A DNA stretch of 32,000 bases from Trichlorobacter lovleyi SZ. Its GTDB lineage: Bacteria > Desulfobacterota > Desulfuromonadia > Geobacterales > Pseudopelobacteraceae. A program made the position numbers and the translations under genes. Shown here in pieces: positions 1-13,001 of this stretch. Numbering within the stretch: the first letter of the stretch is position 1; every line of letters starts with the position of its first letter. The notes below the pieces were generated by a model. It made no database searches. It worked only from the letters and a program-made list of their open reading frames with translations, and was not told where the DNA came from. Where the stretch lies: the NCBI RefSeq assembly GCF_000020385.1, contig NC_010814.1, forward strand, positions 270,001-302,000, in the 5' to 3' direction.

Positions 1-206
1 GTGAACATGTCGGCATTGTCGGCAGTCTGATTCTTGCTTCGGAGCAGCTCTTTCAAGGCAGGGGCAATATGTGAGGGACATTTTATCTCTTCCCGTTCCC
101 ATCGCCCAATAGTCTTGATAGATACATCAAGCTGCTCTGCAAGAGATTTCTGGGTAAAACGTCCACGGGCCTCTTTTAGTCGAACCAGAGCTTCTGAATA
201 ACTCAT
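1..206 (-). CDS. XRE/Cro-family helix-turn-helix regulator (N-terminal part; gene continues past the left edge)
   Basis: Not in the supplied track because it runs off the edge. ATG at 206-204 reads MSYSEALVRLKEARGRFTQKSLAEQLDVSIKTIGRWEREEIKCPSHIAPALKELLRSKNQTADNADMF... with no stop down to position 1. FTQKSLAEQLDVSIKTIGRWE is a classic XRE-type HTH. AGGGA lies ~9 nt upstream of the ATG. Confidence 0.7.
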   Translation of the reverse strand, partial: MSYSEALVRLKEARGRFTQKSLAEQLDVSIKTIGRWEREEIKCPSHIAPALKELLRSKNQTADNADMF

Positions 207-775
207 ATTGCACATCCCTGGGAATTTTTGTGGACATTATGGCCTACATTATTCCCAGAGTCTAGATAAAATATTGCTTTTTGAGATAAATAATGTTTCA
301 TAATCAAAGGCATTTTAGCCTTACTGTGGGAAAGTTATTATGGATATTGAGGAAAATGTCGAAAGAACAGTCGTACGTGAAAAGTGAAATGCTCCGTTGG
401 CAAAATTTATAATACCATCGTACTGAATTATCGCGTCTTACTGTTTGCAGTGATTTTATTCTGCCAGAACGCAAAGTTTGTTTTCGGCATCTTTGATTTT
501 ATACATCCATCGAGATGGTGCCAAAAACAGCCATGCACGAAAATGACGGTCTTGTATTTTGGAGGTACGATATCGGGTTTTCCGGGGAGGTCTTTGCAGT
601 GTAATCTAAAACCTGCGAAATAAAGAGCAGATCTAAACAGAAGCAGTTCAGGAGTAGTCTCTTATGTCCTAACTTGGCTCGTCATTCGGCTTTTCTGGGC
701 TGAAGGATTTGTTGCATAAAGGTTTATTACTAACTATGGCGGATTTATCGTGACTTAGATGTATGATCCTATAAG

Positions 776-2380
776 TCAATTGCGACGAAGCCATTCAGAT
801 TCGTCCAGACCTACACGAGCAAGATTTGCCGCAAAATTATTAGCAATCCTTTGGGCGTGCGACTCTTTTAGATCGAGAATCCATTTAAATTTTATTTCAT
901 CATTTGGCCCACCGATAAAATAGTAATAATCATCTTCTTTTTGAGCCTGCACAATCCCTGTGTCCTCAAAGGGAGAAAATTCTATGATTTCCAGAGCGTG
1001 ACATTCTTTATAGCAAGTAGATAGAGGGACATAGCCTTGCAATTCATTCTTTACTAACACATCAAAATTCTGGCCATCTTTCTCCATGGGGAGAAATAGA
1101 AATTTTCTATGCGTTCCTGCCGCAATTCGAACACTGTCACATTTCTGTTGAATGCATAGTAGATAATTTTCATTTTTCTTGACCACAACACCGAGGGAGA
1201 GAGATGGGCGTTGCGACGTAGATAAAAAATTTCTTTTATGATGAGTCAATATTGAAAACTCTTCATCGCAATCAGCATTGGTGAAGTTATGAGGTCTAAA
1301 TGATTCGCAGGAATATTTCTTCAAACGGCGGCGCTCAAAGTTTTTAATATCATCTTCACTTAAGATAGCTTTACCTGAGTTGTCTACCTCACTATTTAAA
1401 AGTGCAATATATCCTTTGTTTTGCCATAACACCCTCTTATTGCTGTCAATATTTATTTTATGTTTGTCTGTAGCCTTTATTTCAGTATCTATAAACTCTT
1501 GGGATGATAACCAATCGCAAACTATATTACTGGAAACTTGCTGTGAAATATCTGCATTAGTAAGAATTGCGTTTAGTTGTCCACAAATGGTTTCCTTCAG
1601 AAGTTCTCCTGCATCCTCTGGCCAAGGTAGCATGGCTCGATGTGCAACGAAAGCTGGGTCCAGAGAAGGAGAAAAATCGGCTAATAATTTGTAGGTGTTG
1701 TTTCTAAGCTGTGTTAATGCATTCAAGCACGTATTGCTCAGTAGCCCTGCGGATACTTTTGCATATTCGATTGGTACCTCGTCGAGCAATCCCGAGTAGG
1801 ATTTAAGGCGCGGTTTCATTTCAGGCATGTGCATGAATCTTGGAGCTGCACTTTCTTTTGCCCAAATTGATATCCTGACGCCCCCAAAGGAAAGTGTAAA
1901 AGCATCTAGCGGTTTGAAGCATACAAAAGATTCGCTTAGTTGAGTCATGATTTCATTAAGATTGGTTTCGCCGGTGTAAATAAAAATCAATTTGAGCTGA
2001 TCTACTGGGACATCATTCTCAGCGGTGAGGCTCTTGATTATTTGTATTGCAAAATTGCCTCTGAAATCTGCTACATCATCTTCCTCTTCATTTAAATCTA
2101 CTCCAGTAGATGGGGAAATGTTTTTGATATCAATTCTCCAATCGAGAACAACAACGTCTGCCTTTCTTCCAATACTGACAACCATTGACAAATCATCCTG
2201 ATGTTCAGGTGCAAATGCAGTGGCCATGAGGCCTTTGGACGCAGATTCTCTAATTATTGGATTAACATCGAAGGGATGATCATCTTGCTCTGGGCAGTAG
2301 GCCTTATCATCTACAAAAAGAATGGACTGAATAAAATCTTGTGCGATGACTTCTGACATGGCCATGAATTCTCTACTCAT
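776..2380 (-). CDS. Receiver (REC)-like domain protein with uncharacterised ~340-aa C-terminal domain
   Basis: Track ORF is 776..2428. I prefer the ATG at 2380 (MSREF...): it overlaps the upstream stop as ATGAGTAG and follows GGTGGGGA, whereas 2428 lies 56 nt inside the upstream gene. The N-terminal ~170 aa shows the ordered receiver signature: ILFVDDK (acidic pair), DVVVLDWRI (Asp), LIFIYTGE (Thr), ISIWAKE (Lys). The spacers are longer than in CheY and include an acidic NEEEDDVADF insert. The C-terminal part has no motif I recognise. Confidence 0.7.
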   Translation of the reverse strand: MSREFMAMSEVIAQDFIQSILFVDDKAYCPEQDDHPFDVNPIIRESASKGLMATAFAPEHQDDLSMVVSIGRKADVVVLDWRIDIKNISPSTGVDLNEEEDDVADFRGNFAIQIIKSLTAENDVPVDQLKLIFIYTGETNLNEIMTQLSESFVCFKPLDAFTLSFGGVRISIWAKESAAPRFMHMPEMKPRLKSYSGLLDEVPIEYAKVSAGLLSNTCLNALTQLRNNTYKLLADFSPSLDPAFVAHRAMLPWPEDAGELLKETICGQLNAILTNADISQQVSSNIVCDWLSSQEFIDTEIKATDKHKINIDSNKRVLWQNKGYIALLNSEVDNSGKAILSEDDIKNFERRRLKKYSCESFRPHNFTNADCDEEFSILTHHKRNFLSTSQRPSLSLGVVVKKNENYLLCIQQKCDSVRIAAGTHRKFLFLPMEKDGQNFDVLVKNELQGYVPLSTCYKECHALEIIEFSPFEDTGIVQAQKEDDYYYFIGGPNDEIKFKWILDLKESHAQRIANNFAANLARVGLDESEWLRRN

Positions 2381-5357
2381 CAGAATCCCCACCTTCAAAT
2401 TTTTGTACACAGAATGTAACTGTTGCATTGTCGCGAGGATCAGCTACGAAGACCTCATATCCAATACTTTTAAGGACATCTCTTGTGATGTGTAGCCCCA
2501 TTCCTCTGCCGCGTCCATTTGGTGTCTCTTTTTTCGAATACCCTAACTCAAACACGCGCTCCTTAATAGATTCTTGTATAGGCGGTCCATTGTTGGAAAT
2601 GTAAAATCCCCCATCATCTGCATGTAATCTTATAACTTTATCAATATTATCATCTGTTTGCTTCAGCCAATAAACTGCGTTATCTACAATGTTGACGAAT
2701 ACGGGATATATTTTTGAACGACACGCAAAAATACTACGTAAGTTAAATCCTCTAGTGGCTTTAAGTTCGATATTGTGCCTTCGGAAGCGTTCCTTAAAAA
2801 TATCAAGAATAAAAGCAGATATATCTTTGTAGGGTATATTTTCCTGTTTCCTGTACATCCTTCTGTCAAGAGGTGTGAATAGAGACAAGTAGTTATCGAG
2901 GTGTTCAAAATTAGCGCGTAAATTTTTATATAATGATTCGTATTTTTCGTTTACATCACTTAACATCTTTAGGTCTTTTATGTTTTCTCTAATTGCCTGT
3001 GCGGTGCTGGTAAACTCATGGTGAATTACACCAACCGCAAGGCCTAGCTGACTCAGCTCGATATCAACATTAATTTGGCCTCGAAGTTCTTCCAGCTCGT
3101 TCTCTAGGGCATCATTAATATCTGCTTGGGTAATTATATGCCCGTCTTCGTCTTTGCTCCAATGAATGGCGCTTAGTTGTGACTGGACACTTTCAAGAAT
3201 TTGCTTATGTTGTCGCGCTTCAGCGGTGATCTTTTCTTCAATCTCAAGTCGTTTATTGAATAGCTCGTCATCTCCGAGCTTGGATATGTCGAGTTTTGCA
3301 AATTCAACTTTTATATTCTTCAGTGAGTCAGACAGTGTCACCATTACTTCTCTAGTCAAATCAATAACCTGTCGGTTAACAACTTTAATAACATCGTTGG
3401 TCAGTTTGGATTCAACACCTACTGATTTTTCTACATTGGCTGCGATATCATCGATAGCCTGCTGAAGTCGTACTCGTTTGTTTAGTTCAACCTTATATTC
3501 ATTTTTATAAGTGTCGATCAGGTTAGAAATTGTTTTTTTAGTGCATTGAAAATAATCTACATTAAACCTGCTCCACTCATCCTGATAAGCCTCCCACTCC
3601 TGTCGGAGGTCTTTGCTTAGAACAAAACCCTTTGGATTAGATATTCGATAGCTATCTTCAATACTGGTGACGGTTTTTAAAAGATGTAGTTCAAGATCAA
3701 GCATCTTTCTGGCTAATTCATCGTGATCATTTATTATGCTTAACGCCCGCAGTTCTTCCTCAGCTTTAGCATGTACTGTTTCTAACTCGCTTGGAATATT
3801 TATCTTATTATTGTTAAAGTCATTAAGAGCTTTTTGGAATTTTTGTTTTTTCCCAGATGCTTGACTGTCCCTTTTCTGCTTGGCTTTGAATGCTCGATCA
3901 AACTCCACCTTTTTTGCTGTCCACAATTCAGATTTCGGACCGCCATCTGCGCGGAAAAAGTCATTAGCGAGCTGTAGAAAAAAATTGATTAGAATATCTC
4001 TGAGCTGACGGTAAGCTTTGTTTTCGATAAAGCCTTCACGCCCCGCTTTTTCAGTAAGTCCTGAATTATCTAAATGTTTGATATCTATGTATCCCATCAT
4101 TAGCCGATGAGAGAAAAAATAATACTTTGCGCTTTTTGTTCTTCTTTTTTCTATATCAAGCCAATCGTAGTCACTATCACCATATGGCAATATGCGTATG
4201 CCGTCTCTATAGATGTATAAACCCCCAAGGATGTTCGTCTTTGAATGAAGAGGGCTCCAGTCATCTCGACTTAGTAGAGTGTCTTTTTCTGTTCCCTGAA
4301 GATAATGTACGGTTAAGTTAAATGGACCACAGAGTGTTTTTCTCCCGTTCGCACCATGCCAGAGAATTTCATGTTGATATGTCTCCTCGTTGTAGACTGT
4401 CACCTGCCCGGCAAACTGACCATATTCGTCGAATCTGCCACTGAAATGATGGTCCGCTTGAGCACAGTCATCAGGAGTAAAGAATATTGCTTGATCAATA
4501 AGATTATTGGATTTCGAGAGATCTTGATTTTTATAGTCTCTAAAGGCGGTATTAATCACATGTGGTGCTTCCGCATTCATTGTGTTTGTGAAGCCAAGAA
4601 GCATTTTCTGCATAGTAGAGATGTCGCCGGAATTATAATCCTTATCAAGAGAGCTCGCGAGACTCTCGTCCACAGGGGTGATGTAAAAATGGGTGCCAAT
4701 TGAATTATTGCTTAACAGAAGACCATCAAAGAAACTATCCCATTCTTTAGGATTAATTTTGAATGATTTCAGTTGCTCAAGAACTCTTTGGTAATCAATT
4801 TCATCAATTTTGTCTTCAGCGTTTACGAGGCTTTCAACCACCTCGCCGACTAGCTTTTGAACAAAATCCGAATCCGGGAAGCTGTTGTCTTCAAACTCAT
4901 AGACGGGAATATGAATATCTTCGAGAACTAAACCTGGTAGACCGAATATGTCCCAGTTTATAAATGATACGACAAGAGTCTGTGTCTCATTTTCTCTGAG
5001 AGCTCGTGTTAATATCAACACCTGTGGACCAATAGCAGAAATGGCCAAGCGGCCAATACCTTTTTCCCCCATGATAGGACGTTCAGGCTTGCTGAAAGGA
5101 TTTATTTGTGGTTTCTTTCCATACTTGCTGTCTGTTCCAATTGTAAGCCACTTCGACTCAAATTCAGCACGGGTCATTCCATATCCATTATCACGGATAA
5201 GAAGACAGTTTTTATGCCGAAAGTAATCAACTTCTACTTCGTCGGCATACGCATCGTAAGCATTTTTGAACAATTCACTTGTTGCTGTAGGAATTCCGGC
5301 GATTTGTTGGCGGCCGAGCATCTCCAAGGCACGAGCCGATGTTTTAAAATTAGCCAT
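2373..5357 (-). CDS. Dual GHKL protein: N-terminal MORC/Hsp90/MutL-like ATPase + coiled coil + C-terminal histidine-kinase (DHp+CA) core
   Basis: The track ORF starts at a TTG (5369). The ATG at 5357 (MANFKT...) has GAGG 6 nt upstream and overlaps the methyltransferase stop (ATGGCTAA). N-terminal Bergerat-fold motifs: ELFKNAYDA (ExxxNxxDA), IRDNGYGM (DxGxG), GEKGIGRLA (GxxGxG). Residues ~480-770 are K/E/L-rich and coiled-coil-like. C-terminal motifs: H-box-like LAVGVIHHEFTST (HHE codons at 3015..3023), N-box VFVNIVDNAVYWL, G1-like ISNNGPPI, F-box VFELGYS, G2 GRGRGMGLHI. Confidence 0.88.
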   Translation of the reverse strand: MANFKTSARALEMLGRQQIAGIPTATSELFKNAYDAYADEVEVDYFRHKNCLLIRDNGYGMTRAEFESKWLTIGTDSKYGKKPQINPFSKPERPIMGEKGIGRLAISAIGPQVLILTRALRENETQTLVVSFINWDIFGLPGLVLEDIHIPVYEFEDNSFPDSDFVQKLVGEVVESLVNAEDKIDEIDYQRVLEQLKSFKINPKEWDSFFDGLLLSNNSIGTHFYITPVDESLASSLDKDYNSGDISTMQKMLLGFTNTMNAEAPHVINTAFRDYKNQDLSKSNNLIDQAIFFTPDDCAQADHHFSGRFDEYGQFAGQVTVYNEETYQHEILWHGANGRKTLCGPFNLTVHYLQGTEKDTLLSRDDWSPLHSKTNILGGLYIYRDGIRILPYGDSDYDWLDIEKRRTKSAKYYFFSHRLMMGYIDIKHLDNSGLTEKAGREGFIENKAYRQLRDILINFFLQLANDFFRADGGPKSELWTAKKVEFDRAFKAKQKRDSQASGKKQKFQKALNDFNNNKINIPSELETVHAKAEEELRALSIINDHDELARKMLDLELHLLKTVTSIEDSYRISNPKGFVLSKDLRQEWEAYQDEWSRFNVDYFQCTKKTISNLIDTYKNEYKVELNKRVRLQQAIDDIAANVEKSVGVESKLTNDVIKVVNRQVIDLTREVMVTLSDSLKNIKVEFAKLDISKLGDDELFNKRLEIEEKITAEARQHKQILESVQSQLSAIHWSKDEDGHIITQADINDALENELEELRGQINVDIELSQLGLAVGVIHHEFTSTAQAIRENIKDLKMLSDVNEKYESLYKNLRANFEHLDNYLSLFTPLDRRMYRKQENIPYKDISAFILDIFKERFRRHNIELKATRGFNLRSIFACRSKIYPVFVNIVDNAVYWLKQTDDNIDKVIRLHADDGGFYISNNGPPIQESIKERVFELGYSKKETPNGRGRGMGLHITRDVLKSIGYEVFVADPRDNATVTFCVQKFEGGDSDE

Positions 5358-6477
5358 GAATTGCCTCAATGTGTTTTATGAATTGTTTGCCCATCGCAAA
5401 GGCAAGGTCAACAGGTACAGCATTTCCTATTTGTCTTGCCATAGAATTCAGATTTCCAGTGAACTCAAAGGTATCATCAAATCCCTGAAGTCGCGCCGCT
5501 TCTCTGACGCTTATTGCTCTGTCCTGTACAGGGTGACCGAACCTTCCGTTCGAATAACTGATACACCGTGTTGTTAGGCCTGTCGCCGGTTTTTTCCACC
5601 ATAAGCGTCCATAACAATCAGTATGTCCAGAATGGGTTGTACCGTCTTCATTTGTGCGAGTGTAACACTCTGGCCAGAGTGCCCTCGGCCAGTTATTACG
5701 ACCCCCACCATCATGAGTGGATGCTTTGATTCTTTCTAAGTTGATTTCCGACAACATGGCGGCGCGATGATTCAGTACATTATTTCCAGCATAACTCTCG
5801 CCGGCAGTAATAGCAGGAAGATCAGCTATTGCATCGTATACGGTTTTGTATGGGGTATCAGAGTCTTTCCCATGAGTAGGTTCTGGAATGGATATTTCTC
5901 CGTGCCTGCTCGCCAATAGAACAAAACGCCGACGTAGCTGAGGCGCTCCGTAATCTTGTGCAGCAACTACTCCATAGGCAATTTGGTAATTCAGTTTATG
6001 CAGAAGTTCTTCGAACGCAGGGAATGGACCATGCTTGTGGTTGGGAACTTTTTGCAGTCCGGGGACATTTTCCACAAATACAAAATCCGGCTCGCACTCT
6101 TTTACGATGGTGCCAAAATATGTTAATAGATCTTTACGCTCGTCCTGTTTAGGACTTTCCGTATTTTGCTTGGTGAAAGGCTGGCAGGGAGCACAGCCGC
6201 AGAAAAGTTTGTAACTGTCCTTATACTTGTCAAGCGTATGCTGAAAATCGAGAACGGTAAGTTTTTTAATGCTTTTATCGCAAAAATCTGTAGACGGAAA
6301 ATTTTTGGTAAAGGTGTTCTTTGCATCCTTATCAACGTCAAGTGCAAACGCAATATCCATTCCAGCTTTCTGAAAGCCTCTACTTGTTCCTCCACAACCG
6401 CAGAAGAAGTCGAAAACAGATATGTTTTTTTTATCATGATTTATCATAACTGTCCCATCGCAATGATGTCCATCCAT
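5350..6477 (-). CDS. dcm: DNA (cytosine-5)-methyltransferase
   Basis: All canonical C5-MTase motifs are present in order: I FDFFCGCGGTSRGF (FxGxG), IV GCAPCQPFT (PCQ catalytic Cys), VI FVFVENVPGL (ENV), VIII QLRRRFVLLAS (QxRxR), IX REAARLQGFDD, X GNAVPV. The start could also be the internal Met at 6447 (MINHDKK); neither start has a strong SD. Confidence 0.95.
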   Translation of the reverse strand: MDGHHCDGTVMINHDKKNISVFDFFCGCGGTSRGFQKAGMDIAFALDVDKDAKNTFTKNFPSTDFCDKSIKKLTVLDFQHTLDKYKDSYKLFCGCAPCQPFTKQNTESPKQDERKDLLTYFGTIVKECEPDFVFVENVPGLQKVPNHKHGPFPAFEELLHKLNYQIAYGVVAAQDYGAPQLRRRFVLLASRHGEISIPEPTHGKDSDTPYKTVYDAIADLPAITAGESYAGNNVLNHRAAMLSEINLERIKASTHDGGGRNNWPRALWPECYTRTNEDGTTHSGHTDCYGRLWWKKPATGLTTRCISYSNGRFGHPVQDRAISVREAARLQGFDDTFEFTGNLNSMARQIGNAVPVDLAFAMGKQFIKHIEAIHG

Positions 6478-6520
6478 GGCGCTGCCTTTGATACTTTTAT
6501 TGATGTAAAAAAATCCTCAC

Positions 6521-6549
6521 AATATAAAAAATAGTCAATCAAATAACAA
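6521..6549 (-). promoter_or_regulatory. Candidate sigma70-type promoter for the methyltransferase operon
   Basis: On the minus strand: TTGTTA (6549..6544), a 17-nt spacer, then TATATT (6526..6521), ~45 nt upstream of the ATG at 6477. The region is AT-rich, so chance matches are likely. Confidence 0.25.
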
Positions 6550-6583
6550 AGCCGCCCGTCAGCAAAAAACTGAAGCAGGCGGC
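6541..6583 (-). terminator. Candidate Rho-independent terminator (minus strand) upstream of the methyltransferase operon
   Basis: The minus strand reads GCCGCC-TG-CTTCAG-TTTTTTG-CTGACG-GGCGGC followed by TTTGTTATTTG. That gives two 6-bp stem segments (one mismatch, small internal loop) plus a T-rich tail. It would insulate the cargo operon from read-through coming from the tra side. Confidence 0.35.
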
Positions 6584-6809
6584 AAGATGTATAAATAAAG
6601 TTTTTTGAAGGGCACAGAGCCTACCGCCCACTGCCTTGCCCTTCATAAATGCACTAAAATACCATGTTAATACATCTTTTGGCCACAGCTGTCAATCGAT
6701 ATGCAAATGCAGAACATCCGTTTCGGAATTGACACGCATAACACACCATGTCCGACTAAGACAGGTTGCGCAACGCCTTGTAATAACTGTGTATTGCCAA
6801 TAAAATGAA

Positions 6810-6838
6810 TTGACAGAGAAATTTAAACTGGTCAAAAT
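6810..6838 (+). promoter_or_regulatory. Candidate promoter for the small plus-strand membrane-protein gene
   Basis: Perfect -35 TTGACA (6810..6815), 17-nt spacer, weak -10 CAAAAT (6833..6838). It sits ~50 nt upstream of the GTG at 6890. Confidence 0.3.
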
Positions 6839-6889
6839 ATATACATAATGCTCAGTCGAATTCAGACTGCTCATACAAGGAGGGATGAC

Positions 6890-7225
6890 GTGCCCACAAG
6901 TAAAATGAGAGCAATTATTATTTCTGCTGTCGGAACCGTTATTCCTTGCATTATTGCGGGAGCAATTGTCGGCATATTCTTTAGATCGTCATTCTGGTAC
7001 TGGACACTGGGAATCGCTGTTCTGGCGTTCCTCTATGCTTGCCTGGACCGAATACCCTTACGCCTGTTTACAGGAACAATGAAAGGGTTACCTCTGGGTG
7101 GGTTATTAAGGTATGGCTACGCAAGTACAGACAAAAGACCTGTACCCACTTTCTACGAAATCGAAGACCGAGAACGATTCAACATCTATTCTTACGATCA
7201 TTATTATGGTGATCGTGAAAAGTAA
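6890..7225 (+). CDS. Small membrane protein (2 predicted TM helices), unknown function
   Basis: Track ORF is 6848..7225. The GTG at 6890 follows a strong SD (AAGGAGGGATGAC-GTG), so I start it there (VPTSKMRAIIISAVGTVIPCIIAGAIVGIFF...). It has two hydrophobic segments and a charged C-terminal tail. This is the only convincing plus-strand gene in the window. Confidence 0.55.
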   Translation: MPTSKMRAIIISAVGTVIPCIIAGAIVGIFFRSSFWYWTLGIAVLAFLYACLDRIPLRLFTGTMKGLPLGGLLRYGYASTDKRPVPTFYEIEDRERFNIYSYDHYYGDREK

Positions 7226-7527
7226 TCCCATGCGCCTTTAGCTTTCAGCACTTCATCTCTTCGGAGAGTTATAGATCCCCTATATTCAGGAATTAACTCA
7301 TATGGTGATACGGTGTAGAAATAAATGCTGGTACCCTCAGCATTCTCGAAATGTTCAAGGATGGCTCCCGGAAGAGCAACCTCATTCCCTTTGACTGTTA
7401 ATATAGCGCCGAAATCTTTGAGACTTACTTCTACGTCTGTATCACTCAAAGATTCAGGAACTGTAAAATCATCTTGCATCAAACATATGATGCCATCTGA
7501 AACAGGTATCAAACGTTCGACTATCAT
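7204..7527 (-). CDS. Hypothetical soluble acidic protein, last gene of the tra operon
   Basis: The ATG at 7527 follows GGGGGAGA and lies 3 nt after the traG stop (AGA TAG CCA ATG). 107 aa, no TM segment or signal peptide, no recognisable motif. Confidence 0.6.
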   Translation of the reverse strand: MIVERLIPVSDGIICLMQDDFTVPESLSDTDVEVSLKDFGAILTVKGNEVALPGAILEHFENAEGTSIYFYTVSPYELIPEYRGSITLRRDEVLKAKGAWDYFSRSP

Positions 7528-7530
7528 TGG

Positions 7531-10500
7531 CTATCTCCCCCTTCTAGCAGCTGGTGGCCCACCGGATTTTGGCAAATTGCTTGACTTGCTCTGGTGCTGC
7601 AGAATTTTTGATGTACGTTGGACTTCCTGTTGAACATCTCTGGCTTTATCTGCTTTTACCCTCTCTACAGACCTGACAACTTGGGCTTCTTCACGGACAG
7701 ATTCTTTCGCTGCACGTTCTCTTCTTTCCGCCATCTTTAAGTTTGGCCCTACGACTCCTTCTACATCTCTGACTACTCCCGCCGTCTCATGCAGCGCACC
7801 CTGCCCAACAGCAATCATAGTGGCAGCCGTGCCGGCATCAATTGATCGCCCATCAGTGAATTCCTGGGTAGCTGCACTCCCAGCAAGATTCTGCTTGGAT
7901 TCTACCCTCGTTCCAACCACCTGCGAATTCGAATAATCCGCCTTGACCCCGCCATCGGCACGGACACTCCCGGTAATTCCACCACCAGACCTGGTACTGA
8001 CAACCGCCGCTCCCTGTTGTGACGACTGAACAAACTGATCCTCTGTGATTTCGGAACGCTGCCCGGCAATAAGATTCCCGCTCTTGTCCATTTTGCCCTG
8101 AACCTGGGAGTAGTGCAGGTTGCCATCCTTGTCCTTGGCGTACATAAGGACATTACCATCAAGCCCGTTCGAGAATGAACCGCCGACTACCTCCATATTA
8201 CCGGTTTTCTCATTCTTGGCGTAATACCAGTCCCCATTGACCATCATCTGTTTGCCACCAGCCTGGATCATGTAGCTGCCGGACTTCCGCGAGACATTCA
8301 GGGACTGGTTTTCGTAGCCGGTCTTGATAAAATCACCAACTGTTTTGCGCAGCCCCTTGTCTGTGGTCGATACGTTCCGGTCCAGGCGCTCGATATCAGT
8401 TCCGCTCTTGCTCTGACCAAGATCGAACTTCTGCACCCGACCACCTTGATCAATAGCAAACGACGCGAGATTGCCGTTCCGGTCGTAATCTGCCTTGTAG
8501 TCGAAGGCCTGACCAGACAGTTTGGCGACATGGGCGGCGGCACTTTGGAATCCGGCAGCACGGAGTTGCTTTTGCATTTCAAGAGCCTGCTCCTTGTCTC
8601 CCTTGGCAACGGTACCTGAATTAGACGAATTGACTATCCCGCCATCCATGCCGACATTGACAGCGCTCTTGCCGTCAGATGTCGTGAAGTTGATGTTCTG
8701 CCCCTCCATCGCCTTCTGCACCTCGGCAAAGCCCCGTTCGGTCAGGTGGCCGTTCTGATACATCTCCGGATCGTTCTTGAGTTGCGGAGCAATCTTGCCT
8801 ACCATTTGATCCGCTGCTGCGTGGACCAGCTGATTGCGGGCGATCCTCCCTGAAACATCATTGCTGGTGAGCTGCTGGTAGTTCTCGTAGCCACCCCCTG
8901 CATAAATTCCCTGGATCTTGCCACCGGTTTCCGTTGCCAAAACATGACCAGCTTCTGTACCGGCAGCAACCGGTCCACCCATCTGATTTGAGAGGCCGGT
9001 TACCTCTGAAGCATGCTTGCTCTGTTGGAACTGTGCATTCATCTGCATGAGCTGTCCGGAAGAGATCCCGTATTTATCGGCAATCTTGTTTACCGCATCG
9101 GCATTGGCAAAATCCCCAAGGGCCGTTACCTCAGAACGCATGGCATGGAAATCTCGCCAGTTTCCGCTGAAACCCAATGACCTGGCAGCGGCATAAGCAC
9201 CCATCTCCCCCTGCAATTGTCCGACACTCTTATTCATGTTAGCAGTCAAGAAGTCAGAGTAGTTTTCACCGGAACCAAAGACATTTGCCAAGGCCCGGTC
9301 ATTGGCAACTCCCATCTTGGCAAAGGCGAGAGTGTTGCCACCATAACTGCCTGAAACAACATCCTTGGTTGCAGCAGACTTGTCGAGTCCTAACCGGCCA
9401 TCAAAGGATTTCAGCTCGTAGGCTGATGACAGACCACCTTCCCGCATGGCCCTGCCGCTACCACCGAAACCGATTGATCTGCCAATCTCGCTATCAGCAG
9501 ATATTCTGCTCGAAAAATCCATCCCGAAGTCCCGGATCATATCACTCGACGCAGTAGTCTTAGCCGACATCCCGACCAGCGATTGCGCCTGTCTCGCCTG
9601 GAAGCTGTGCTCGTTGCTCCATGCCTGCGTCGGCATGGCTGTCACGTTACGCTGCATGGCTGATGCTCTGCCGGCTGGATCTTCCACCTCATGTGCCGCC
9701 CGGGTACCTGCTGACTGCACCTGATTGACCATCCCCCCGGCCATCATTGCCATAGCGTGCCCGCCGAACCGAATCAACATCCCGGTAATAACTGTAGCCA
9801 GCATCATCCCACTCATCCGGAGTGTGCCGAACATCCCGAGGATCTTCACCGTTTGATCGGGGAAGAAGTAGAGCGCATCCATGCCGAGCTTGTTCTGCCG
9901 CACCATCTCATAGGCCCGATTGGCATAGTCCACGGCAAATTGGTGAACTATGGCATCAGTGACACCCCAGGCAGTGAGCCAAATGAAGAAGCCAGCGATG
10001 ATGCCCACGGCTTTGCTGATCAGTGGCGTGGGAATGAAGAGCGCAAGGAACGGCAACAAACCAACTGCAATGGCCGTGAGTGCCGCCTTCAGGATCGGCA
10101 GCCATTCGTTGGCTGATTTCATAGCCCCGGAGGCGTTGAGCAGGAACTGATAGTTGGTGGCACCGGATGCGTTGCCACTGCGGAAAATCTCCTCCAGCCT
10201 CTGGGAGACGTAGGCCTGTTTCAGAAAGTCATCAATGCTCGCTGCACCAAGACCAGTTCCAGTATTGACGTTATTCAGAACCGTCTTGCACTGAGTCAGA
10301 GCAGCGGCATCAGTAACATCGTAACCAAGATTGGCGCACACCGATTCAATATTCTTCCCCAAATTGGCCGGGGTAAGCGCTGCCTTGATGTTGGTCCAGG
10401 AGTCAGTACAGGTAAGCGCTTGGCCCTGCGGGTTGGCGGCATTGAAATATACCGTCCAGATGGCCGGGTTGACCGCCTTGTCCAGGGAGCCAACAAAGTT

Positions 10501-11148
10501 GGTGGTAGTCTTGCGCAATTCATCCACCGTAAGGTTGGCATTGGGATTCATCAGTGCGTAGGAAACGCAATCCTTGACGTATCTCCGCATAGAAGCGTCC
10601 AGATTGCTGTCCACTGCTGACAGGGGAATGCTGGTGAGTTGAGCGAGACCCAGGAATCCTTTCCCACCGGCCTGCGTCTGGTAATTAAGGGGATCTCCGG
10701 CAGTAGTTACGATATCCACCAGGCCCCGCTCGATCTTGTTCAGGATACCGGCCACTGCCACAACGCCGTCAGGTATTCCGCCTACCGCCTGGTTCTTATT
10801 GAAGACCGGATCATAGACATGGATAGTCCCTTTGGGGACGACCAAGGCGAGATAGACCATGACGCCGATCAAAGTCGGCACGATCCAGGTCATGACGGAG
10901 CCGTTGGCTGTTCCCAGAGACTTTGCAAAGACCGTCACCCCGCCAAAGAAGAGCCCGGCGGTGATGACCACGAAATAGAGCGACTTGTAGGCGTTGTCGC
11001 CGAAGATCAGTGCCAGCTTACCGAAGGCATTCACGACGGCATCGTGGCCTCCCCAGACGTAGAACTCCATGTCCAGAGCCAAAGCCATGGTTGGGATGAG
11101 CACCAAGAGTGCCGTAAGAACGAGCCTAGATACTGTCCGTATCGACAT
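7531..11148 (-). CDS. traG: F-type conjugative mating-pair stabilisation / pilus assembly protein TraG
   Basis: 1205 aa with AGGAG upstream of the ATG. The N-terminal ~480 aa is polytopic membrane (ALDMEFYVWGGHDAVVNAFGKLALIFG..., several TM helices), as in the TraG_N domain of F TraG. It is followed by a long G/S/A/N/Q-rich periplasmic region. It occupies the terminal position of the operon, as in F-like systems. Confidence 0.88.
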   Translation of the reverse strand: MSIRTVSRLVLTALLVLIPTMALALDMEFYVWGGHDAVVNAFGKLALIFGDNAYKSLYFVVITAGLFFGGVTVFAKSLGTANGSVMTWIVPTLIGVMVYLALVVPKGTIHVYDPVFNKNQAVGGIPDGVVAVAGILNKIERGLVDIVTTAGDPLNYQTQAGGKGFLGLAQLTSIPLSAVDSNLDASMRRYVKDCVSYALMNPNANLTVDELRKTTTNFVGSLDKAVNPAIWTVYFNAANPQGQALTCTDSWTNIKAALTPANLGKNIESVCANLGYDVTDAAALTQCKTVLNNVNTGTGLGAASIDDFLKQAYVSQRLEEIFRSGNASGATNYQFLLNASGAMKSANEWLPILKAALTAIAVGLLPFLALFIPTPLISKAVGIIAGFFIWLTAWGVTDAIVHQFAVDYANRAYEMVRQNKLGMDALYFFPDQTVKILGMFGTLRMSGMMLATVITGMLIRFGGHAMAMMAGGMVNQVQSAGTRAAHEVEDPAGRASAMQRNVTAMPTQAWSNEHSFQARQAQSLVGMSAKTTASSDMIRDFGMDFSSRISADSEIGRSIGFGGSGRAMREGGLSSAYELKSFDGRLGLDKSAATKDVVSGSYGGNTLAFAKMGVANDRALANVFGSGENYSDFLTANMNKSVGQLQGEMGAYAAARSLGFSGNWRDFHAMRSEVTALGDFANADAVNKIADKYGISSGQLMQMNAQFQQSKHASEVTGLSNQMGGPVAAGTEAGHVLATETGGKIQGIYAGGGYENYQQLTSNDVSGRIARNQLVHAAADQMVGKIAPQLKNDPEMYQNGHLTERGFAEVQKAMEGQNINFTTSDGKSAVNVGMDGGIVNSSNSGTVAKGDKEQALEMQKQLRAAGFQSAAAHVAKLSGQAFDYKADYDRNGNLASFAIDQGGRVQKFDLGQSKSGTDIERLDRNVSTTDKGLRKTVGDFIKTGYENQSLNVSRKSGSYMIQAGGKQMMVNGDWYYAKNEKTGNMEVVGGSFSNGLDGNVLMYAKDKDGNLHYSQVQGKMDKSGNLIAGQRSEITEDQFVQSSQQGAAVVSTRSGGGITGSVRADGGVKADYSNSQVVGTRVESKQNLAGSAATQEFTDGRSIDAGTAATMIAVGQGALHETAGVVRDVEGVVGPNLKMAERRERAAKESVREEAQVVRSVERVKADKARDVQQEVQRTSKILQHQSKSSNLPKSGGPPAARRGR

Positions 11149-11866
11149 GTACTACTCCTGCATCAATCAGTTTAAGGTTACGCCTCCATGCGAACAGCAT
11201 GGCGATAATGGGAATGATGATGAACACCGCCGTGGAAATCAGGACAAAGTAGGCTGAAATGAGGAAGATCCCCTTGAATCCCTGGACCCAGTTATATATC
11301 GAGTAAACGGTGCTTTGAGAGGTCTTGGTGTAGTAGAGCTTGGTCACTGCCCACACCACGTTATTGTCTGTGAAAATTTTGAAATAAAGGAAATGGAAGG
11401 CAATGAAGGCCACAACCGCCTTGACGATGGCCCCGAAGATCATTCCGCCCAGGAGGTTTAGCACCATGGCACGTGTGTACTCGCCGATGAAGCACGTGGA
11501 TGCCTTTGCCATGAAGATGGCATAACCCAAAGAGAACCCCAGCGCCAACAGGAAGGCGCTGAACTTGTCAAAGAAGGTCGGCGACGGGTCACCGAACATG
11601 GGGATGTACTGTTCGATCACCCCTATGGCAACAGGAGTCAGGAATGCCGAAACAATTCCCGAGGCAAAGGAACTCCTGAATCCCACTTCCATGAATTCAA
11701 GCCTCTGCTTGGTAGTCAGGAAGCGGGACTTGATCATGCAGCCTCCCAGTTCGTTGGCGAAGTTCTGATCGATGTACGAAATTGCCTCCAGGAGTCCTCG
11801 CGGGTGGATCTCATTGCTTGGCGGTACCGGCATGATATCCGGAGTGCTGTTACTATCCTTCGACAC
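11126..11866 (-). CDS. Polytopic inner-membrane protein, unknown function
   Basis: The GTG at 11866 follows AGGAGAG. 246 aa with ~5 hydrophobic helices (e.g. FLISAYFVLISTAVFIIIPIIAMLF). Its 3' end overlaps the traG start by 23 nt. Confidence 0.72.
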   Translation of the reverse strand: MSKDSNSTPDIMPVPPSNEIHPRGLLEAISYIDQNFANELGGCMIKSRFLTTKQRLEFMEVGFRSSFASGIVSAFLTPVAIGVIEQYIPMFGDPSPTFFDKFSAFLLALGFSLGYAIFMAKASTCFIGEYTRAMVLNLLGGMIFGAIVKAVVAFIAFHFLYFKIFTDNNVVWAVTKLYYTKTSQSTVYSIYNWVQGFKGIFLISAYFVLISTAVFIIIPIIAMLFAWRRNLKLIDAGVVHVDTDSI

Positions 11867-11874
11867 GTTCTCTC

Positions 11875-12126
11875 CTATCCAGTGAACGATCTGATCAGGT
11901 TCATGATCCCGCCGCCATAGGCGACGATTGCCGCCAGCAGCAGGCAGATGGCAGCCAGGGTAGGATTACGCTGTCGGACTCCTACCCAGAAGGCCGAGAC
12001 CACAAGGGCAACGAAGAAGAAACGCCCCCAGAAACCGTAGAGCAGCGTCGCGAAGAGTTTCTGCCAGAAGCCGGTATACGCAGCCTGCCCCATATAATGC
12101 AGGGGATTGAGTTTCTCAATGGGCAC
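11875..12126 (-). CDS. Small two-TM membrane protein (VirB2/TrbC-pilin-like or TraQ-like)
   Basis: Track ORF 11875..12258 overlaps the peptidase gene by >100 nt. The GTG at 12126 follows GAGGA and lies just after the peptidase stop (TTTTGAGAGGAATTCC-GTG). The product is VPIEKLNPLHYMGQAAY...FFFVALVVSAFWVGV-RQRNPT-LAAICLLLAAIVAYGGGIMNLIRSFTG, i.e. two hydrophobic helices joined by a short basic loop. Confidence 0.55.
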   Translation of the reverse strand: MPIEKLNPLHYMGQAAYTGFWQKLFATLLYGFWGRFFFVALVVSAFWVGVRQRNPTLAAICLLLAAIVAYGGGIMNLIRSFTG

Positions 12127-12136
12127 GGAATTCCTC

Positions 12137-12649: not shown

Positions 12650-13001
12650 CCATGATGATCACCCGGTTCTTTGGAATTGCCGTGATGACGTTTTCCAGCC
12701 GGTCGAAACTCTTCTTCAATTCATCATCATTCAGTTTGCCGGCCAGATAGTTGTCCCGCTGCTGAGCGATGTACCCCTTGATATCGACGGCAACTACCTT
12801 CTGGGCGAACCATCGGTCATAGCCAACTATGGTGGACAAAGATGCTCCTACAGAGACCGCCACACAGATCGCTATCATGGAAACAAGACTTGGATGCTGT
12901 TTTGGATGCTGTTTGGGATACTCTTTGGGTACCGAAACAGCATCCTTGTTGCTTTCCGATTCCTGAGAGACGTTAATCTTTATGTTGGTTTCATCATTCA
13001 T
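12609..13001 (-). CDS. trbI: TrbI-like F-type transfer protein (bitopic membrane protein)
   Basis: 130 aa with a single TM helix (LVSMIAICVAVSVGASL). The remainder resembles my recollection of F TrbI: VVAVDIKGYIAQQ matches VAFNMKQTVDAF, and NRVIIMGDAVV matches AVILVSPAVV. Size and operon position fit. Confidence 0.5.
   Translation of the reverse strand: MNDETNIKINVSQESESNKDAVSVPKEYPKQHPKQHPSLVSMIAICVAVSVGASLSTIVGYDRWFAQKVVAVDIKGYIAQQRDNYLAGKLNDDELKKSFDRLENVITAIPKNRVIIMGDAVVRNAETVRP

What the first reader, a model, noticed from the sequence alone, without database searches (positions are those of the whole stretch)
2373..5357. Single polypeptide carrying two different GHKL modules joined by a ~300-residue coiled coil
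Seen: residues ~30-110 carry MORC/Hsp90/MutL-type motifs (ELFKNAYDA, DNGYGM, GEKGIGRLA). Residues ~880-965 carry histidine-kinase CA motifs (VNIVDNAVYW, SNNGPPI, GRGMGLHI), preceded by LAVGVIHHEFTSTAQAI, which looks like a DHp H-box (compare G-[IV]-A-H-E-[IF]). Between them lies a long K/E/L-rich segment (e.g. ELRALSIINDHDELARKMLDLELHLLK, LEIEEKITAEARQHKQILESVQSQL).

Inference: a DNA-clamping or sensing ATPase is hard-wired through a coiled-coil transducer to a kinase output. This would parallel how sensor domains drive DHp helices in classical kinases, but with no TM or PAS/GAF sensor. The G1 box is degenerate (NNGPP rather than DxGxG), so the second module could be a pseudo-kinase.
Basis: partly seen in the sequence, partly recalled or inferred. 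Interest (0 to 1): 0.7.

Follow-up and report, generated by a model that had tools for sequence, protein, structure and literature searches.

The report
MORC-like ATPase fused to histidine kinase
This gene encodes a soluble 994-residue protein with a MORC/Hsp90-type ATPase at one end and a histidine-kinase core at the other, but the architecture and its methylase and receiver-protein partners were already published in 2021, so it is a rediscovery whose mechanism is still untested.

Summary
The gene lies on the minus strand (2373-5357) and encodes a 994-aa soluble protein with these parts:
- N-terminal MORC/Hsp90-like GHKL ATPase plus transducer (1-470)
- about 254 aa of heptad-patterned helices (477-730)
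- DHp domain with invariant H780-E-F
- HATPase_c domain (839-986)

It is the middle gene of a translationally coupled cassette. A C5 DNA methylase lies upstream. A 534-aa receiver protein lies downstream, and its 350-aa output region matches nothing known.

This "HATPase_c_3 + HEF_HK + HATPase_c" architecture, its Response_reg_2 partner and the upstream methylase were described by Bellieny-Rabelo et al. 2021 (Pfam PF19191/PF19192). Geobacter lovleyi SZ is among that paper's genomes, so the finding is not new.

A pseudo-kinase is unlikely. In 71 distinct loci the phospho-His, N-box and G2 box are invariant, and so are the receiver's Asp, Thr and Lys. The G1 Asp-to-Asn change is real but specific to one clade (60 Asn, 11 Asp).

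Best reading: a restriction-modification-like defence or addiction module carried as cargo on a conjugative element. An ATP-gated clamp would control His-to-Asp phosphotransfer to an effector of unknown fold.

A distant, shorter relative lacking the helical linker (AbrB of "Ambrosia") is needed for anti-phage defence in a 2025 preprint. DNA or methylation sensing is inferred, not shown.

The parts
2373..5357 (-). Gene for the 994-aa soluble paraMORC-histidine-kinase fusion (HATPase_c_3 + HEF_HK + HATPase_c).
   Evidence: ORF and translation. Pfam. 100% identical to a Trichlorobacter lovleyi 'ATP-binding protein/histidine kinase'.
4878..5357 (-). N-terminal GHKL ATPase fold, residues 1-160. Motif I is E28/N32 (N32 codon 5262-5264). 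Motif II is D56-x-G-x-G (D56 codon 5190-5192). Motif III is G97-E-K-G-x-G.
   Evidence: Pfam HATPase_c_3. All listed residues conserved in 71/71 loci. Foldseek matches to SMCHD1, MORC and Hsp90.
4713..4877 (-). Variable helical insert, residues 161-215. It is absent from the short ~685-aa sister family.
   Evidence: AF2 secondary structure. Lowest conservation in the N-terminal half (29% identity to query). Gap in alignment A6.
3948..4712 (-). Alpha/beta transducer (middle/S5-like) domain, residues 216-470, with invariant R388, P391-Y-G, R406, R440-E-G.
   Evidence: AF2 model. Foldseek alignments of 450-500 columns to the GHKL+middle domains of MORC2, SMCHD1 and Hsp90. Conservation.
3168..3929 (-). 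Helical linker, residues 477-730. Six predicted helices with heptad-like pattern. It is the least conserved part of the protein.
   Evidence: AF2 helices 477-541, 545-570, 582-620, 627-657, 662-687 and 696-730. Heptad contrast z = 3.3 against shuffles, G+P 2.4%. 25-41% identity against 55-65% in the catalytic modules. Missing from the AbrB-like family.
2850..3128 (-). DHp (HEF_HK) domain, residues 744-836. The predicted phospho-acceptor is H780 (codon 3018-3020) in the motif HHEF.
   Evidence: Pfam PF19191, 96 bits. H780, E781 and F782 in 71/71 loci. Codon checked. Foldseek and phmmer matches to HK853.
2400..2843 (-). Catalytic/ATP-binding (CA) HATPase_c domain, residues 839-986. N-box N893 (codon 2679-2681). 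G1 box S-N922-N-G-P-P (N922 codon 2592-2594). F936. G2 box G950-R-G-M-G.
   Evidence: Pfam PF02518. HK853 alignment puts N922 at the G1 Asp position. Conservation.
776..2380 (-). Partner gene: 534-aa Response_reg_2 protein. The true start is the ATG at 2380, which overlaps the kinase stop by 8 nt (ATGAGTAG).
   Evidence: Pfam PF19192. Homologues start at M17 of the longer ORF. Junction sequence.
1835..2380 (-). Receiver (REC) domain of the partner, residues 1-182. Acidic pair D24/D25, phospho-acceptor D80 (codon 2141-2143), T136, K175.
   Evidence: AF2 (beta-alpha)5 fold, pLDDT 85.7. Weak Foldseek matches to receiver domains. D24, D80, T136 and K175 in 71/71 loci.
779..1834 (-). Output region of the partner, residues 183-534. 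A helical domain (183-361) is followed by a beta-rich domain ending in a long helix (362-534). Invariant residues are C409, C414, D415 and R522, plus a near-invariant C-terminal 'GLDESEWLRR'. No known relatives.
   Evidence: No Pfam or PDB sequence match. No Foldseek match beyond REC in PDB or BFVD. In the top 150 of 1416 cluster representatives it sits at the C-terminal end of ~540-aa proteins or their fragments.
5350..6477 (-). C5 cytosine DNA methyltransferase, 375 aa. Its stop overlaps the kinase start by 8 nt (ATGGCTAA).
   Evidence: Pfam DNA_methylase 8e-61, TIGR00675, PADLOC MTase_II. Junction sequence. Immediately upstream of the kinase in 81 of 85 loci.
443..679 (-). Decayed vsr (very-short-patch repair endonuclease) gene downstream of the cassette.
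   Evidence: tblastn 48% identity to Vsr of L003 and L004. It has an in-frame stop and lacks the C-terminal third.

Best explanation
The gene is the kinase component of a three-gene cassette: C5 methylase, then paraMORC-histidine kinase, then a receiver-effector. The cassette is horizontally mobile and rides here as low-GC cargo at the end of the F-type transfer genes of a conjugative element in Trichlorobacter (Geobacter) lovleyi.

Shown:
- The protein has a complete MORC/Hsp90-type GHKL ATPase plus transducer.
- It has a helical connector of about 254 aa.
- It has a HisKA-like DHp domain with an invariant His-Glu-Phe and a CA domain.
- The partner has a complete receiver active site.
- The three genes overlap by 8 nt at each junction and are co-inherited across bacteria and archaea.

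Inferred mechanism:
1. The protein dimerises constitutively through the DHp four-helix bundle.
2. Like Hsp90, MutL and MORC, it closes its N-terminal GHKL gates on ATP binding, possibly around DNA.
3. Gate closure is relayed along the helical arms to the DHp/CA core.
4. This switches autophosphorylation of H780 and transfer to D80 of the partner.
5. The partner's output domain, of unknown fold, then carries out the response.

The methylase marks host DNA, and the frequent Vsr neighbour argues that it is constitutively active. The system therefore behaves like a restriction-modification, defence or addiction module in which a phosphorelay sits between sensing and effect. Asn in place of the G1 Asp is a derived, conserved feature of the main clade. 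It may alter nucleotide handling, but it does not indicate a dead kinase.
For: Domain calls: Pfam, AF2, Foldseek and the HK853 alignment.

Conservation in 71 distinct loci from the genome-contig scan, the encoding-contig look-ups and the window:
- Kinase: E28, N32, D56, G58, G60, G97, K99, G100, G102, H780, E781, F782, N893, G924, F936, G950, G952 and G954 are 71/71.
- Partner: D24, D80, T136 and K175 are 71/71.

Operon structure:
- 8-nt overlaps at both junctions.
- The methylase is immediately upstream in 81 of 85 loci and the Response_reg_2 gene immediately downstream in 81 of 85.
- Pairwise kinase and partner distances correlate at r = 0.87.

Methylase:
- 67 of 71 methylases share one target-recognition-domain type of 119-129 aa.
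- That domain diverges in step with the catalytic core (r = 0.85). This is what one expects if a fixed methylation motif is read by the partner proteins.
- Vsr is present in 40 of 85 loci.

Defence and mobile context:
- Integrases, OLD-like or AAA_15/21 ATPases and XRE genes lie next to the cassette elsewhere.
- Here the cassette is 38-45% GC against 50-57% in the adjacent T4SS genes.

Relatives:
- The N-terminal GHKL region matches the BbrUII/HgiDII type II restriction-enzyme model (E 1.5e-20) and a PADLOC REase_II model.
- A GHKL-nuclease paraMORC3 protein (VcSduA) is a validated Shedu-type defence that needs its ATPase glutamate (PMC12137116).
- AbrB of the 'Ambrosia' defence system is a distant, shorter double-GHKL homologue (31% and 25% identity).
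- Mutating AbrB's N-terminal GHKL Asn (N40A), which aligns with window N32, or the receiver Asp of AbrC abolishes anti-phage defence (bioRxiv 10.1101/2025.09.30.679545).
Against: - No experiment exists for this family. Autophosphorylation, phosphotransfer, DNA binding and defence are all untested.
- The cassette has no recognisable nuclease or other effector domain. The partner's output has no homologue or fold match.
- All domains are acidic (pI 4.3-6.6), which gives no support for DNA binding.
- The G1 Asp that contacts adenine in GHKL enzymes is Asn here. From my own knowledge, Asp-to-Asn changes in Hsp90 and GyrB abolish ATP binding.
- Ambrosia's receiver (209 aa, canonical REC), its N6 methylase and its HNH nuclease are not homologous to the partners here. 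Its authors favour transcriptional control. Transfer of function from Ambrosia is therefore weak.
- The AF2 model is a monomer with low confidence around the DHp region (pLDDT below 50 at 751-781 and 820-836). The dimeric clamp geometry is conjecture.
Confidence: 0.55

Rival explanations
1. A conventional regulatory two-component system. The kinase senses a cytoplasmic cue such as NTP level or infection, and the phosphorylated partner acts as a transcription factor that switches on methylase or restriction genes. PMC8011034 speculated this, and the Ambrosia authors modelled it.
For: PMC8011034 discussion. In Ambrosia, reporters replacing abrA or abrD are induced on infection, and AbrC is said to carry a wHTH. 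Some loci have an XRE gene directly upstream of the methylase.
Against: - The partner here has no detectable HTH or other DNA-binding domain.
- Its output domains are acidic.
- The minimal conserved unit is only methylase, kinase and partner, with no separate nuclease gene to regulate in most loci.
- The 350-aa output is far larger and more conserved than a DNA-binding output would need to be.
- AbrC is not homologous to it beyond the generic REC fold.
Confidence: 0.15
2. A pseudo-kinase. The C-terminal GHKL no longer binds ATP because G1 Asp has become Asn. The DHp serves only as a dimerisation domain for a MORC-like ATPase, and the partner is a phospho-independent adaptor.
For: Asn922 replaces the adenine-contacting Asp, and the second Gly of DxGxG is lost. 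The ATP lid between the F and G2 boxes is short.
Against: - H780, E781, N893, G924, F936 and G950/G952/G954 in the kinase, and D24, D80, T136 and K175 in the receiver, are invariant in 71 loci spanning many phyla and archaea. This is hard to explain without phosphotransfer.
- 11 of 71 family members keep the canonical D[NST]GPG box.
- The short sister family has DNGPG.
Confidence: 0.1
3. A DNA-repair accessory rather than an immune system. A MutL-like GHKL module would assist Vsr in repairing T:G mismatches created by deamination of the 5-methylcytosine that the linked methylase makes.
For: Vsr genes lie in 40 of 85 loci, often directly adjacent. MutL is a GHKL+transducer protein, and from my own knowledge E. 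coli MutL stimulates Vsr.
Against: - Vsr is absent from about half the loci and is a pseudogene here, while kinase and partner are intact.
- From my own knowledge, Vsr accompanies many C5 methylases irrespective of partner genes.
- A repair role gives no reason for a His-Asp relay or for a 350-aa effector.
- The mobile-element and defence-island context fits conflict systems.
Confidence: 0.07

Closest known systems
HEF_HK / Response_reg_2 'two-component-like' family (Bellieny-Rabelo, Pretorius & Moleleki 2021, Genome Biol Evol, PMC8011034; Pfam PF19191 and PF19192)
   Same: Identical architecture: 'group 1' HATPase_c_3 + HEF_HK + HATPase_c, found in 174 of 222 sequences in that study. The same adjacent Response_reg_2 gene (91.6% linkage in the paper; 81 of 85 loci here). 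The same upstream C5 methylase and Vsr neighbour. No TM segments. Geobacter lovleyi SZ is listed among the paper's genomes.
   Different: Nothing essential; this is that family. Points added here:
- The clade-specific G1 Asp-to-Asn change.
- The conserved methylase target-recognition domain.
- The transducer domain and the six-helix linker.
- The partner's 350-aa output has no fold match.
Ambrosia anti-phage system of Pseudomonas aeruginosa (AbrR-AbrA-AbrB-AbrC-AbrD; bioRxiv 10.1101/2025.09.30.679545)
   Same: AbrB is a soluble protein with an N-terminal HATPase_c_3 and a C-terminal HATPase_c. It sits between a DNA methylase gene and a receiver gene. It is homologous to the window protein in the GHKL (31%) and transducer (25%) regions. 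Defence requires the N-terminal GHKL Asn and the receiver Asp.
   Different: - AbrB is 747 aa. Its ~685-aa family lacks the helical linker of about 250 aa and has a canonical DNGPG G1 box.
- The methylase is N6-adenine, not C5.
- The receiver is a 209-aa canonical REC, not homologous to the 534-aa partner.
- Ambrosia has a separate HNH nuclease and an XRE regulator, which this cassette lacks.
paraMORC3 / Shedu type I-D (e.g. VcSduA; PMC12137116) and GHKL-type type II restriction enzymes (NCBIfam BbrUII/HgiDII family)
   Same: An N-terminal GHKL ATPase with a clamp-like middle domain is thought to gate a C-terminal output. Linked to C5 methylases and to defence. The window protein's residues 7-124 match the BbrUII/HgiDII model (E 1.5e-20).
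   Different: In those proteins the output is a fused PD-(D/E)xK nuclease. Here it is a DHp+CA kinase core that passes the signal to a separate protein. The score is far below the family cut-off (73 against 550 bits).
Eukaryotic MORC, SMCHD1 and Hsp90
   Same: GHKL plus transducer fold (Foldseek E 1e-10 to 1e-8). Long helical segments and a constitutive dimerisation element lie distal to the ATP-gated N-terminal domains. There is a functional link to cytosine methylation.
   Different: Only 11-14% identity over the Foldseek alignments. None of those proteins has a kinase core. Their dimerisation is by coiled coil, hinge or C-terminal domain, not by a DHp bundle.
Detocs (defensive two-component system, DtcA/B/C; bioRxiv 10.1101/2023.01.24.525353)
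   Same: A His-Asp phosphorelay used in phage defence, with a receiver fused to an effector rather than to a DNA-binding domain.
   Different: No homology was tested. From my own knowledge, Detocs has a TPR-type sensor, a buffer receiver and a nucleosidase effector, with no methylase and no second GHKL module.

Membership tests
HEF_HK-containing HK-like proteins, group 1 (PMC8011034) | HEF_HK (PF19191) domain above the Pfam gathering score | tested here: met
   96.4 bits against a cut-off of 24.1, residues 770-836.
HEF_HK-containing HK-like proteins, group 1 (PMC8011034) | N-terminal HATPase_c_3 and C-terminal HATPase_c in the same polypeptide | tested here: met
   PF13589 at 24-133 (55.4 bits) and PF02518 at 882-984 (55.2 bits).
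HEF_HK-containing HK-like proteins, group 1 (PMC8011034) | Adjacent gene encoding a Response_reg_2 (PF19192) protein | tested here: met
   The downstream gene at 776-2380 scores 105.9 bits against a cut-off of 27, with an 8-nt overlap.
HEF_HK-containing HK-like proteins, group 1 (PMC8011034) | Soluble protein with no transmembrane segment | tested here: met
   Maximum 19-residue hydropathy is 1.61, and that segment lies within a predicted beta-strand of the GHKL fold.
HisKA-type sensor histidine kinases | H-box His followed by an acidic residue on DHp helix 1 | tested here: met
   H780-E781 in 71/71 loci. AF2 places them in helix 744-802, though with low pLDDT.
HisKA-type sensor histidine kinases | N box Asn, F box and G2 box (GxGxG) in the CA domain | tested here: met
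   N893, F936 and G950/G952/G954 in 71/71 loci. Aligned to HK853.
HisKA-type sensor histidine kinases | G1 box DxGxG with the adenine-contacting Asp | tested here: not met
   The window has S-N-N-G-P-P. Asn922 sits at the Asp position. Across loci it is Asn in 60 of 71 and Asp in 11 of 71.
HisKA-type sensor histidine kinases | ATP-dependent autophosphorylation and transfer to a receiver Asp | not testable with these tools
   Needs biochemistry. Only the conservation of donor His and acceptor Asp supports it.
MORC / paraMORC GHKL ATPases (Iyer et al. 2008, PMC2292703) | GHKL motifs I-III intact: E/N, DxGxG and a Gly-rich lid | tested here: met
   E28, N32, D56, G58, G60, G97, K99, G100 and G102 in 71/71 loci.
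MORC / paraMORC GHKL ATPases (Iyer et al. 2008, PMC2292703) | S5-like transducer domain following the GHKL fold | tested here: met
   Foldseek alignments of 450-540 columns to MORC2 (9cdh), MORC3/4 and SMCHD1 (6mw7) cover GHKL plus middle domain. The catalytic Lys was not pinpointed.
MORC / paraMORC GHKL ATPases (Iyer et al. 2008, PMC2292703) | Assignment to one of the named paraMORC1-5 families | not tested
   The 2008 paper does not mention a kinase fusion. No reference sequences of paraMORC1-5 were available for comparison.
Ambrosia defence system | Five-gene set: XRE, N6 methylase, AbrB, small REC AbrC and HNH AbrD | tested here: not met
   Only an AbrB-like protein is shared, and distantly. 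The methylase is C5. The partner is not AbrC-like. No HNH or XRE gene lies within the cassette.
BbrUII/HgiDII-family type II restriction enzymes (NF050001) | Full-length match above the NCBIfam cut-off, including the nuclease part | tested here: not met
   73 bits against a cut-off of 550. Only model positions 6-121 of 659 matched.

The most novel reading that the evidence does not exclude
The ~995-aa paraMORC-kinase is a sensor of unmethylated foreign DNA. ATP-driven closure of a MORC-like clamp would be transmitted along helical arms of about 250 aa to a DHp/CA core. That core would phosphorylate a receiver fused to an effector of an undescribed fold. This would be a restriction-modification-type immunity that uses a His-Asp phosphorelay in place of a directly coupled nuclease. 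In the main clade the kinase ATP site has swapped the otherwise universal GHKL Asp for Asn, which may change nucleotide specificity (for example towards GTP).
Probability: 0.25. Interest if true: 0.7.

Novelty: already known. Interest (0 to 1): 0.35.

Why it matters
If the inferred mechanism is right, this widespread cassette would show how a MORC/Hsp90-type ATP-gated clamp can be wired to a histidine kinase. It occurs in about 295 of 185,579 species genomes, in bacteria and archaea. It would also show that a phosphorelay can sit inside a restriction-modification-like immune or addiction module. The pairing of a DNMT1-like C5 methylase with a MORC-like ATPase echoes the eukaryotic link between MORC proteins and DNA methylation. 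The partner's 350-aa output region is a conserved, confidently modelled region with no known relative, so it is a candidate new effector. The architecture itself has been in Pfam and the literature since 2021, however, so what remains of value is the untested mechanism, not the discovery.

Tried and rejected
1. Identity of the partner's output. I tried these searches:
- Foldseek of the full AF2 model against PDB and BFVD.
- Profile searches of the middle (A5) and C-terminal (A4) domains against PDB sequences.
- Per-member Pfam scans at E up to 10.
- A profile search of 1.84 billion cluster representatives.
None gave anything beyond the REC domain. In the top 150 hits the C-terminal domain occurs only at the C-terminal end of this ~540-aa family (or its fragments). 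I considered PD-(D/E)xK, HNH and zinc-site readings of the C409-x4-C414-D415 motif. None could be supported.

2. Co-variation of kinase or partner regions with methylase specificity. I abandoned this because 67 of 71 methylases share a single target-recognition-domain type, so there is no specificity variation to track.

3. Iyer et al. 2008. I read it for a prior description of the kinase fusion and found none.

4. MADS (bioRxiv 10.1101/2023.03.30.534895). I checked it as a possible relative. My term search of that preprint found no GHKL, MORC or HATPase mention, and its histidine-kinase mentions refer to a boundary gene of the defence hotspot.

5. Megablast of the cassette against PLSDB plasmids gave no match.

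6. The promoter/terminator scan of 300-7700 was no better than shuffles.

7. PADLOC 2023 has no model for the kinase or the partner beyond a weak REase_II hit on the GHKL motif.

Full report
**1. What is there**

The feature is a real gene, but on the minus strand. The ATG is at 5357, the TAG stop at 2375-2373, and the product has 994 residues.

Pfam places three domains above their curated thresholds:
- HATPase_c_3 at 24-133
- HEF_HK (PF19191) at 770-836, 96 bits against a cut-off of 24
- HATPase_c at 882-984

An AlphaFold2 model built on 36 homologues (mean pLDDT 74) gives this layout:

| Residues | Element |
|---|---|
| 1-160 | GHKL fold |
| 161-215 | variable helical insert |
| 216-470 | alpha/beta transducer domain |
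| 477-730 | six long helices |
| 733-741 | small hairpin |
| 744-825 | two DHp helices |
| 839-986 | CA domain |

Foldseek against the PDB supports both ends. Some 450-540 columns of the N-terminal half align with SMCHD1, MORC2, MORC3, MORC4 and Hsp90 (E 1e-10 to 1e-8). The C-terminal 220-250 residues align with HK853, ZraS and the engineered light-regulated kinase 4gcz (E about 1e-7, 18-21% identity).

The helical region is G+P-poor (2.4%). Its heptad-type hydrophobic contrast is above shuffled controls (z = 3.3). It is the least conserved part of the protein, at 25-41% identity against 55-65% in the catalytic modules.

There is no TM segment, and Pfam found no PAS or GAF domain.

- A roughly 250-aa transducer domain also lies between the two ATPase folds.
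- The "coiled coil" is about 254 aa in six helices, not one continuous 300-residue coil.

**2. Surroundings**

The gene is the middle of three translationally coupled genes:
- The upstream gene (5350-6477) is a C5 cytosine methylase. Its stop overlaps the kinase start (ATGGCTAA).
- The downstream gene encodes a Response_reg_2 (PF19192) protein. Homologues show that its true start is the ATG at 2380, giving 534 aa, and this overlaps the kinase stop (ATGAGTAG).
- Further downstream is a decayed vsr gene at about 443-679. It has an in-frame stop and has lost its C-terminal third.

The cassette lies directly after traG of an F-type type IV secretion gene set: TraG, TrbC, TraU, TraN, TraC, TraB/TrbI and TraK. 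Its GC content is 38-45%, against 50-57% for the transfer genes. It is therefore acquired cargo of a conjugative element.

The protein is 100% identical to a Trichlorobacter (Geobacter) lovleyi protein found on a 3.9-Mb contig.

**3. The partner**

The AF2 model of the partner is confident (pLDDT 85.7). It shows:
- a receiver fold at 1-182
- a helical domain at about 183-361
- a beta-rich domain closed by a long C-terminal helix at 362-534

The receiver active site is complete and invariant: D24/D25, D80, T136 and K175.

The 350-residue output region matched nothing:
- nothing in Pfam, including relaxed per-member scans
- nothing in profile searches of PDB sequences
- nothing by Foldseek in PDB or BFVD beyond the receiver domain

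A profile of the C-terminal domain finds 1416 cluster representatives. In the top 150 it sits at the C-terminal end of ~540-aa proteins or their fragments. Its invariant residues are C409, C414, D415 and R522, with a nearly invariant terminal "GLDESEWLRR". I could not assign it a function.

**4. Comparative evidence**

The kinase family is large. More than 4200 clusters match, and the listed full-length hits are about 995 aa. A scan of one genome per species found relatives in 295 of 185,579 genomes. These include archaea: Methanoperedens, Methanosarcinaceae, Halobacteriota and Promethearchaeum.

My ORF and phmmer survey covered 85 loci with a full-length kinase:

| Feature | Loci (of 85) |
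|---|---|
| Methylase immediately upstream | 81 |
| Response_reg_2 gene immediately downstream | 81 |
| Vsr in the locus | 40 |
| AAA_15/AAA_21 ATPase in the locus | 17 |

Precomputed annotation of other contigs shows integrases, an OLD-like gene and XRE genes nearby.

Conservation across 71 distinct loci:
- N-terminal ATPase motifs are invariant: E28, N32, D56, G58, G60, G97, K99, G100, G102.
- The H-box is invariant: H780, E781, F782.
- The N, F and G2 boxes are invariant: N893, F936, G950/G952/G954.
- The receiver catalytic residues are invariant.

Kinase and partner divergence are tightly correlated (r = 0.87).

The methylases form essentially one lineage. In 67 of 71 loci the target-recognition domain is of one alignable type, 119-129 aa long. 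It diverges in step with the catalytic core (r = 0.85). This is what one expects if a fixed methylation motif is functionally coupled to the other two proteins.

**5. The G1 box**

Alignment with HK853 places Asn922 at the position of the adenine-contacting Asp of DxGxG. This is not decay:
- Asn is found in 60 of 71 loci.
- The 11 most divergent members of the same operon family have D[NST]GPG together with an NHEF H-box.
- The short sister family has DNGPG.

Every other catalytic residue stayed fixed after the change. I read Asn922 as a derived, selected state whose biochemical consequence is unknown. It might, for example, change nucleotide preference.

**6. What is already known**

[quoted passage not shown] They reported:
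- 91.6% linkage between the two genes across 644 regions
- HATPase_c_3 + HEF_HK + HATPase_c as the dominant architecture (174 of 222 sequences)
- the upstream C5 methylase and the downstream Vsr
- absence of TM segments

They proposed that the N-terminal ATPase takes the sensor position and that the family branched from paraMORCs. Geobacter lovleyi SZ is in their genome list. They did no experiments.

A 2025 preprint (10.1101/2025.09.30.679545) validated "Ambrosia" in P. aeruginosa. It has five genes: an XRE regulator, an N6 methylase, AbrB, the small receiver AbrC and the HNH nuclease AbrD. Table S1 of the preprint gives AbrB as 747 aa with HATPase_c_3 and HATPase_c. Another member of its gene family is annotated HEF_HK.

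Its first 399 residues align with the window protein at 31% identity in the GHKL region and 25% in the transducer. AbrB N40A and AbrC D60A both abolish defence. N40 aligns with window N32.

AbrB's ~685-aa relatives lack the long helical linker. AbrC is not homologous to the 534-aa partner.

A GHKL-nuclease paraMORC3 protein, VcSduA, is a validated Shedu-type defence (PMC12137116).

Iyer et al. 2008 (PMC2292703) defined the paraMORCs and their restriction-modification context but did not describe the kinase fusion.

**7. Mechanism**

Shown:
- the domain composition
- intact catalytic motifs in both ATPase modules, except the G1 Asp
- an intact receiver
- operon coupling and co-inheritance with one methylase lineage
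- mobile-element context

Inferred:
1. The protein dimerises through the DHp bundle.
2. The N-terminal GHKL domains close on ATP binding, as in Hsp90, MutL and MORC, possibly around DNA.
3. The helical arms relay this to the DHp/CA core.
4. H780 is phosphorylated and passes the phosphoryl group to D80.
5. The partner's unknown output domain then acts.

The methylase would mark self DNA, and Vsr linkage argues that it is active on host DNA. I put about 0.55 on this overall reading. I put much less, about 0.25-0.35, on the specific claim that the input is unmethylated DNA.

Rivals:
- a transcriptional two-component system (0.15)
- a pseudo-kinase (0.10)
- a repair accessory for Vsr (0.07)

**8. 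Verdict**

It is a published, Pfam-curated family, however, and Geobacter lovleyi SZ is among the genomes that paper analysed.

Points that I did not find in the papers I read:
- the clade-specific G1 Asn
- the single conserved methylase target-recognition-domain type
- the methylase's closer resemblance to DNMT1 than to M.HhaI or M.HaeIII
- the short linker-less sister family that contains a validated defence protein
- an effector region with no known fold relative

Interest is moderate and lies in the untested mechanism.

Noticed in passing
window 443-679 (-): A vsr (very-short-patch repair endonuclease) pseudogene lies just downstream of the cassette. It is 48% identical to intact Vsr genes at the same position in other loci. 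It has an in-frame stop after the N-terminal segment and has lost the C-terminal third.
   Followed up: yes
window 1-7500 versus 7500-32000: There is a sharp GC step. The methylase-kinase-receiver cassette and its flanks are 38-45% GC, whereas the conjugation genes are 50-57%. This suggests the cassette was acquired separately from the element that carries it.
   Followed up: partly
window 7531-26602 (-): A near-complete F-type type IV secretion gene set: TraG_N (1205 aa), a signal-peptidase-like gene, TrbC, TraU, TraN-like (1164 aa), TraC, TrbI/TraB and TraK. The 100%-identical kinase is recorded on a 3.9-Mb contig. This suggests an integrative conjugative element in the T. lovleyi chromosome. 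A DsbC-like thiol-disulfide isomerase gene lies just beyond, at 27880-28704.
   Followed up: partly
window 29514-30806 (-): A HipA-family toxin kinase gene (HipA_C plus Couple_hipA). A small ORF directly upstream at 30796-31134 overlaps it and could be its HipB-type antitoxin; I did not check.
   Followed up: no
window ~1-215 (-): A small XRE/HTH_3-like ORF (MSYSEALVRLKEARGRFTQKSLAEQLDVSIKTIGRWE...) runs off the left end of the window, downstream of the vsr remnant. The Pfam HTH_3 score is just under the cut-off (22.9 bits against 23).
   Followed up: partly
window 5350-6477 (-): The best matches of the C5 methylase among solved structures are eukaryotic DNMT1 catalytic domains (E 3.5e-31), including the segment just before motif IX. 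These are well ahead of M.HaeIII (3e-18) and M.HhaI (2e-15). Pairing a DNMT1-like methylase with a MORC-like ATPase echoes the eukaryotic link between MORC proteins and DNA methylation.
   Followed up: partly
proteins P0421, P0447, P0448, P0489 and others; alignment A6: There is a large sister family of ~685-aa soluble proteins with the same GHKL + transducer + DHp + CA order. They lack the ~250-aa helical linker and the N-terminal inserts, and they have a canonical DNGPG G1 box. The experimentally validated Ambrosia AbrB belongs near this group.
   Followed up: partly
loci L001, L003, L012, L013, L017, L020-L022, L024, L025, L050, L053, L056, L073: In 17 of 85 loci a ~600-aa AAA_15/AAA_21 (OLD/ABC-type) ATPase gene follows the receiver gene directly, sometimes followed in turn by vsr. 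It may be an optional fourth component. The window has none.
   Followed up: no
loci L019, L033, L036, L086: The complete cassette also occurs in archaeal assemblies: Methanoperedens, Methanosarcinaceae, Halobacteriota and a Promethearchaeum (Asgard) MAG. The kinase is 45-47% identical to the window protein, which indicates inter-domain horizontal transfer. In L086 the kinase and receiver genes appear split.
   Followed up: no
loci L055, L070, L074, L081: Four gammaproteobacterial loci (Marinomonas, Xenorhabdus, Vibrio, Shewanella) carry a methylase with a different, longer target-recognition domain (150-163 aa). They also have a real intergenic gap before the kinase gene, unlike the overlapping arrangement elsewhere. 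This may be a specificity switch.
   Followed up: no
kinase alignment columns 779 and 922 (loci L058, L061, L069, L075-L078, L080, L082, L084, L085): Two changes are correlated. All 11 members with the canonical G1 Asp have N-H-E-F in the H-box. Most members with G1 Asn have H-H-E-F. A few are intermediates with NHEF plus NNG (L052, L060, L063, L072).
   Followed up: partly
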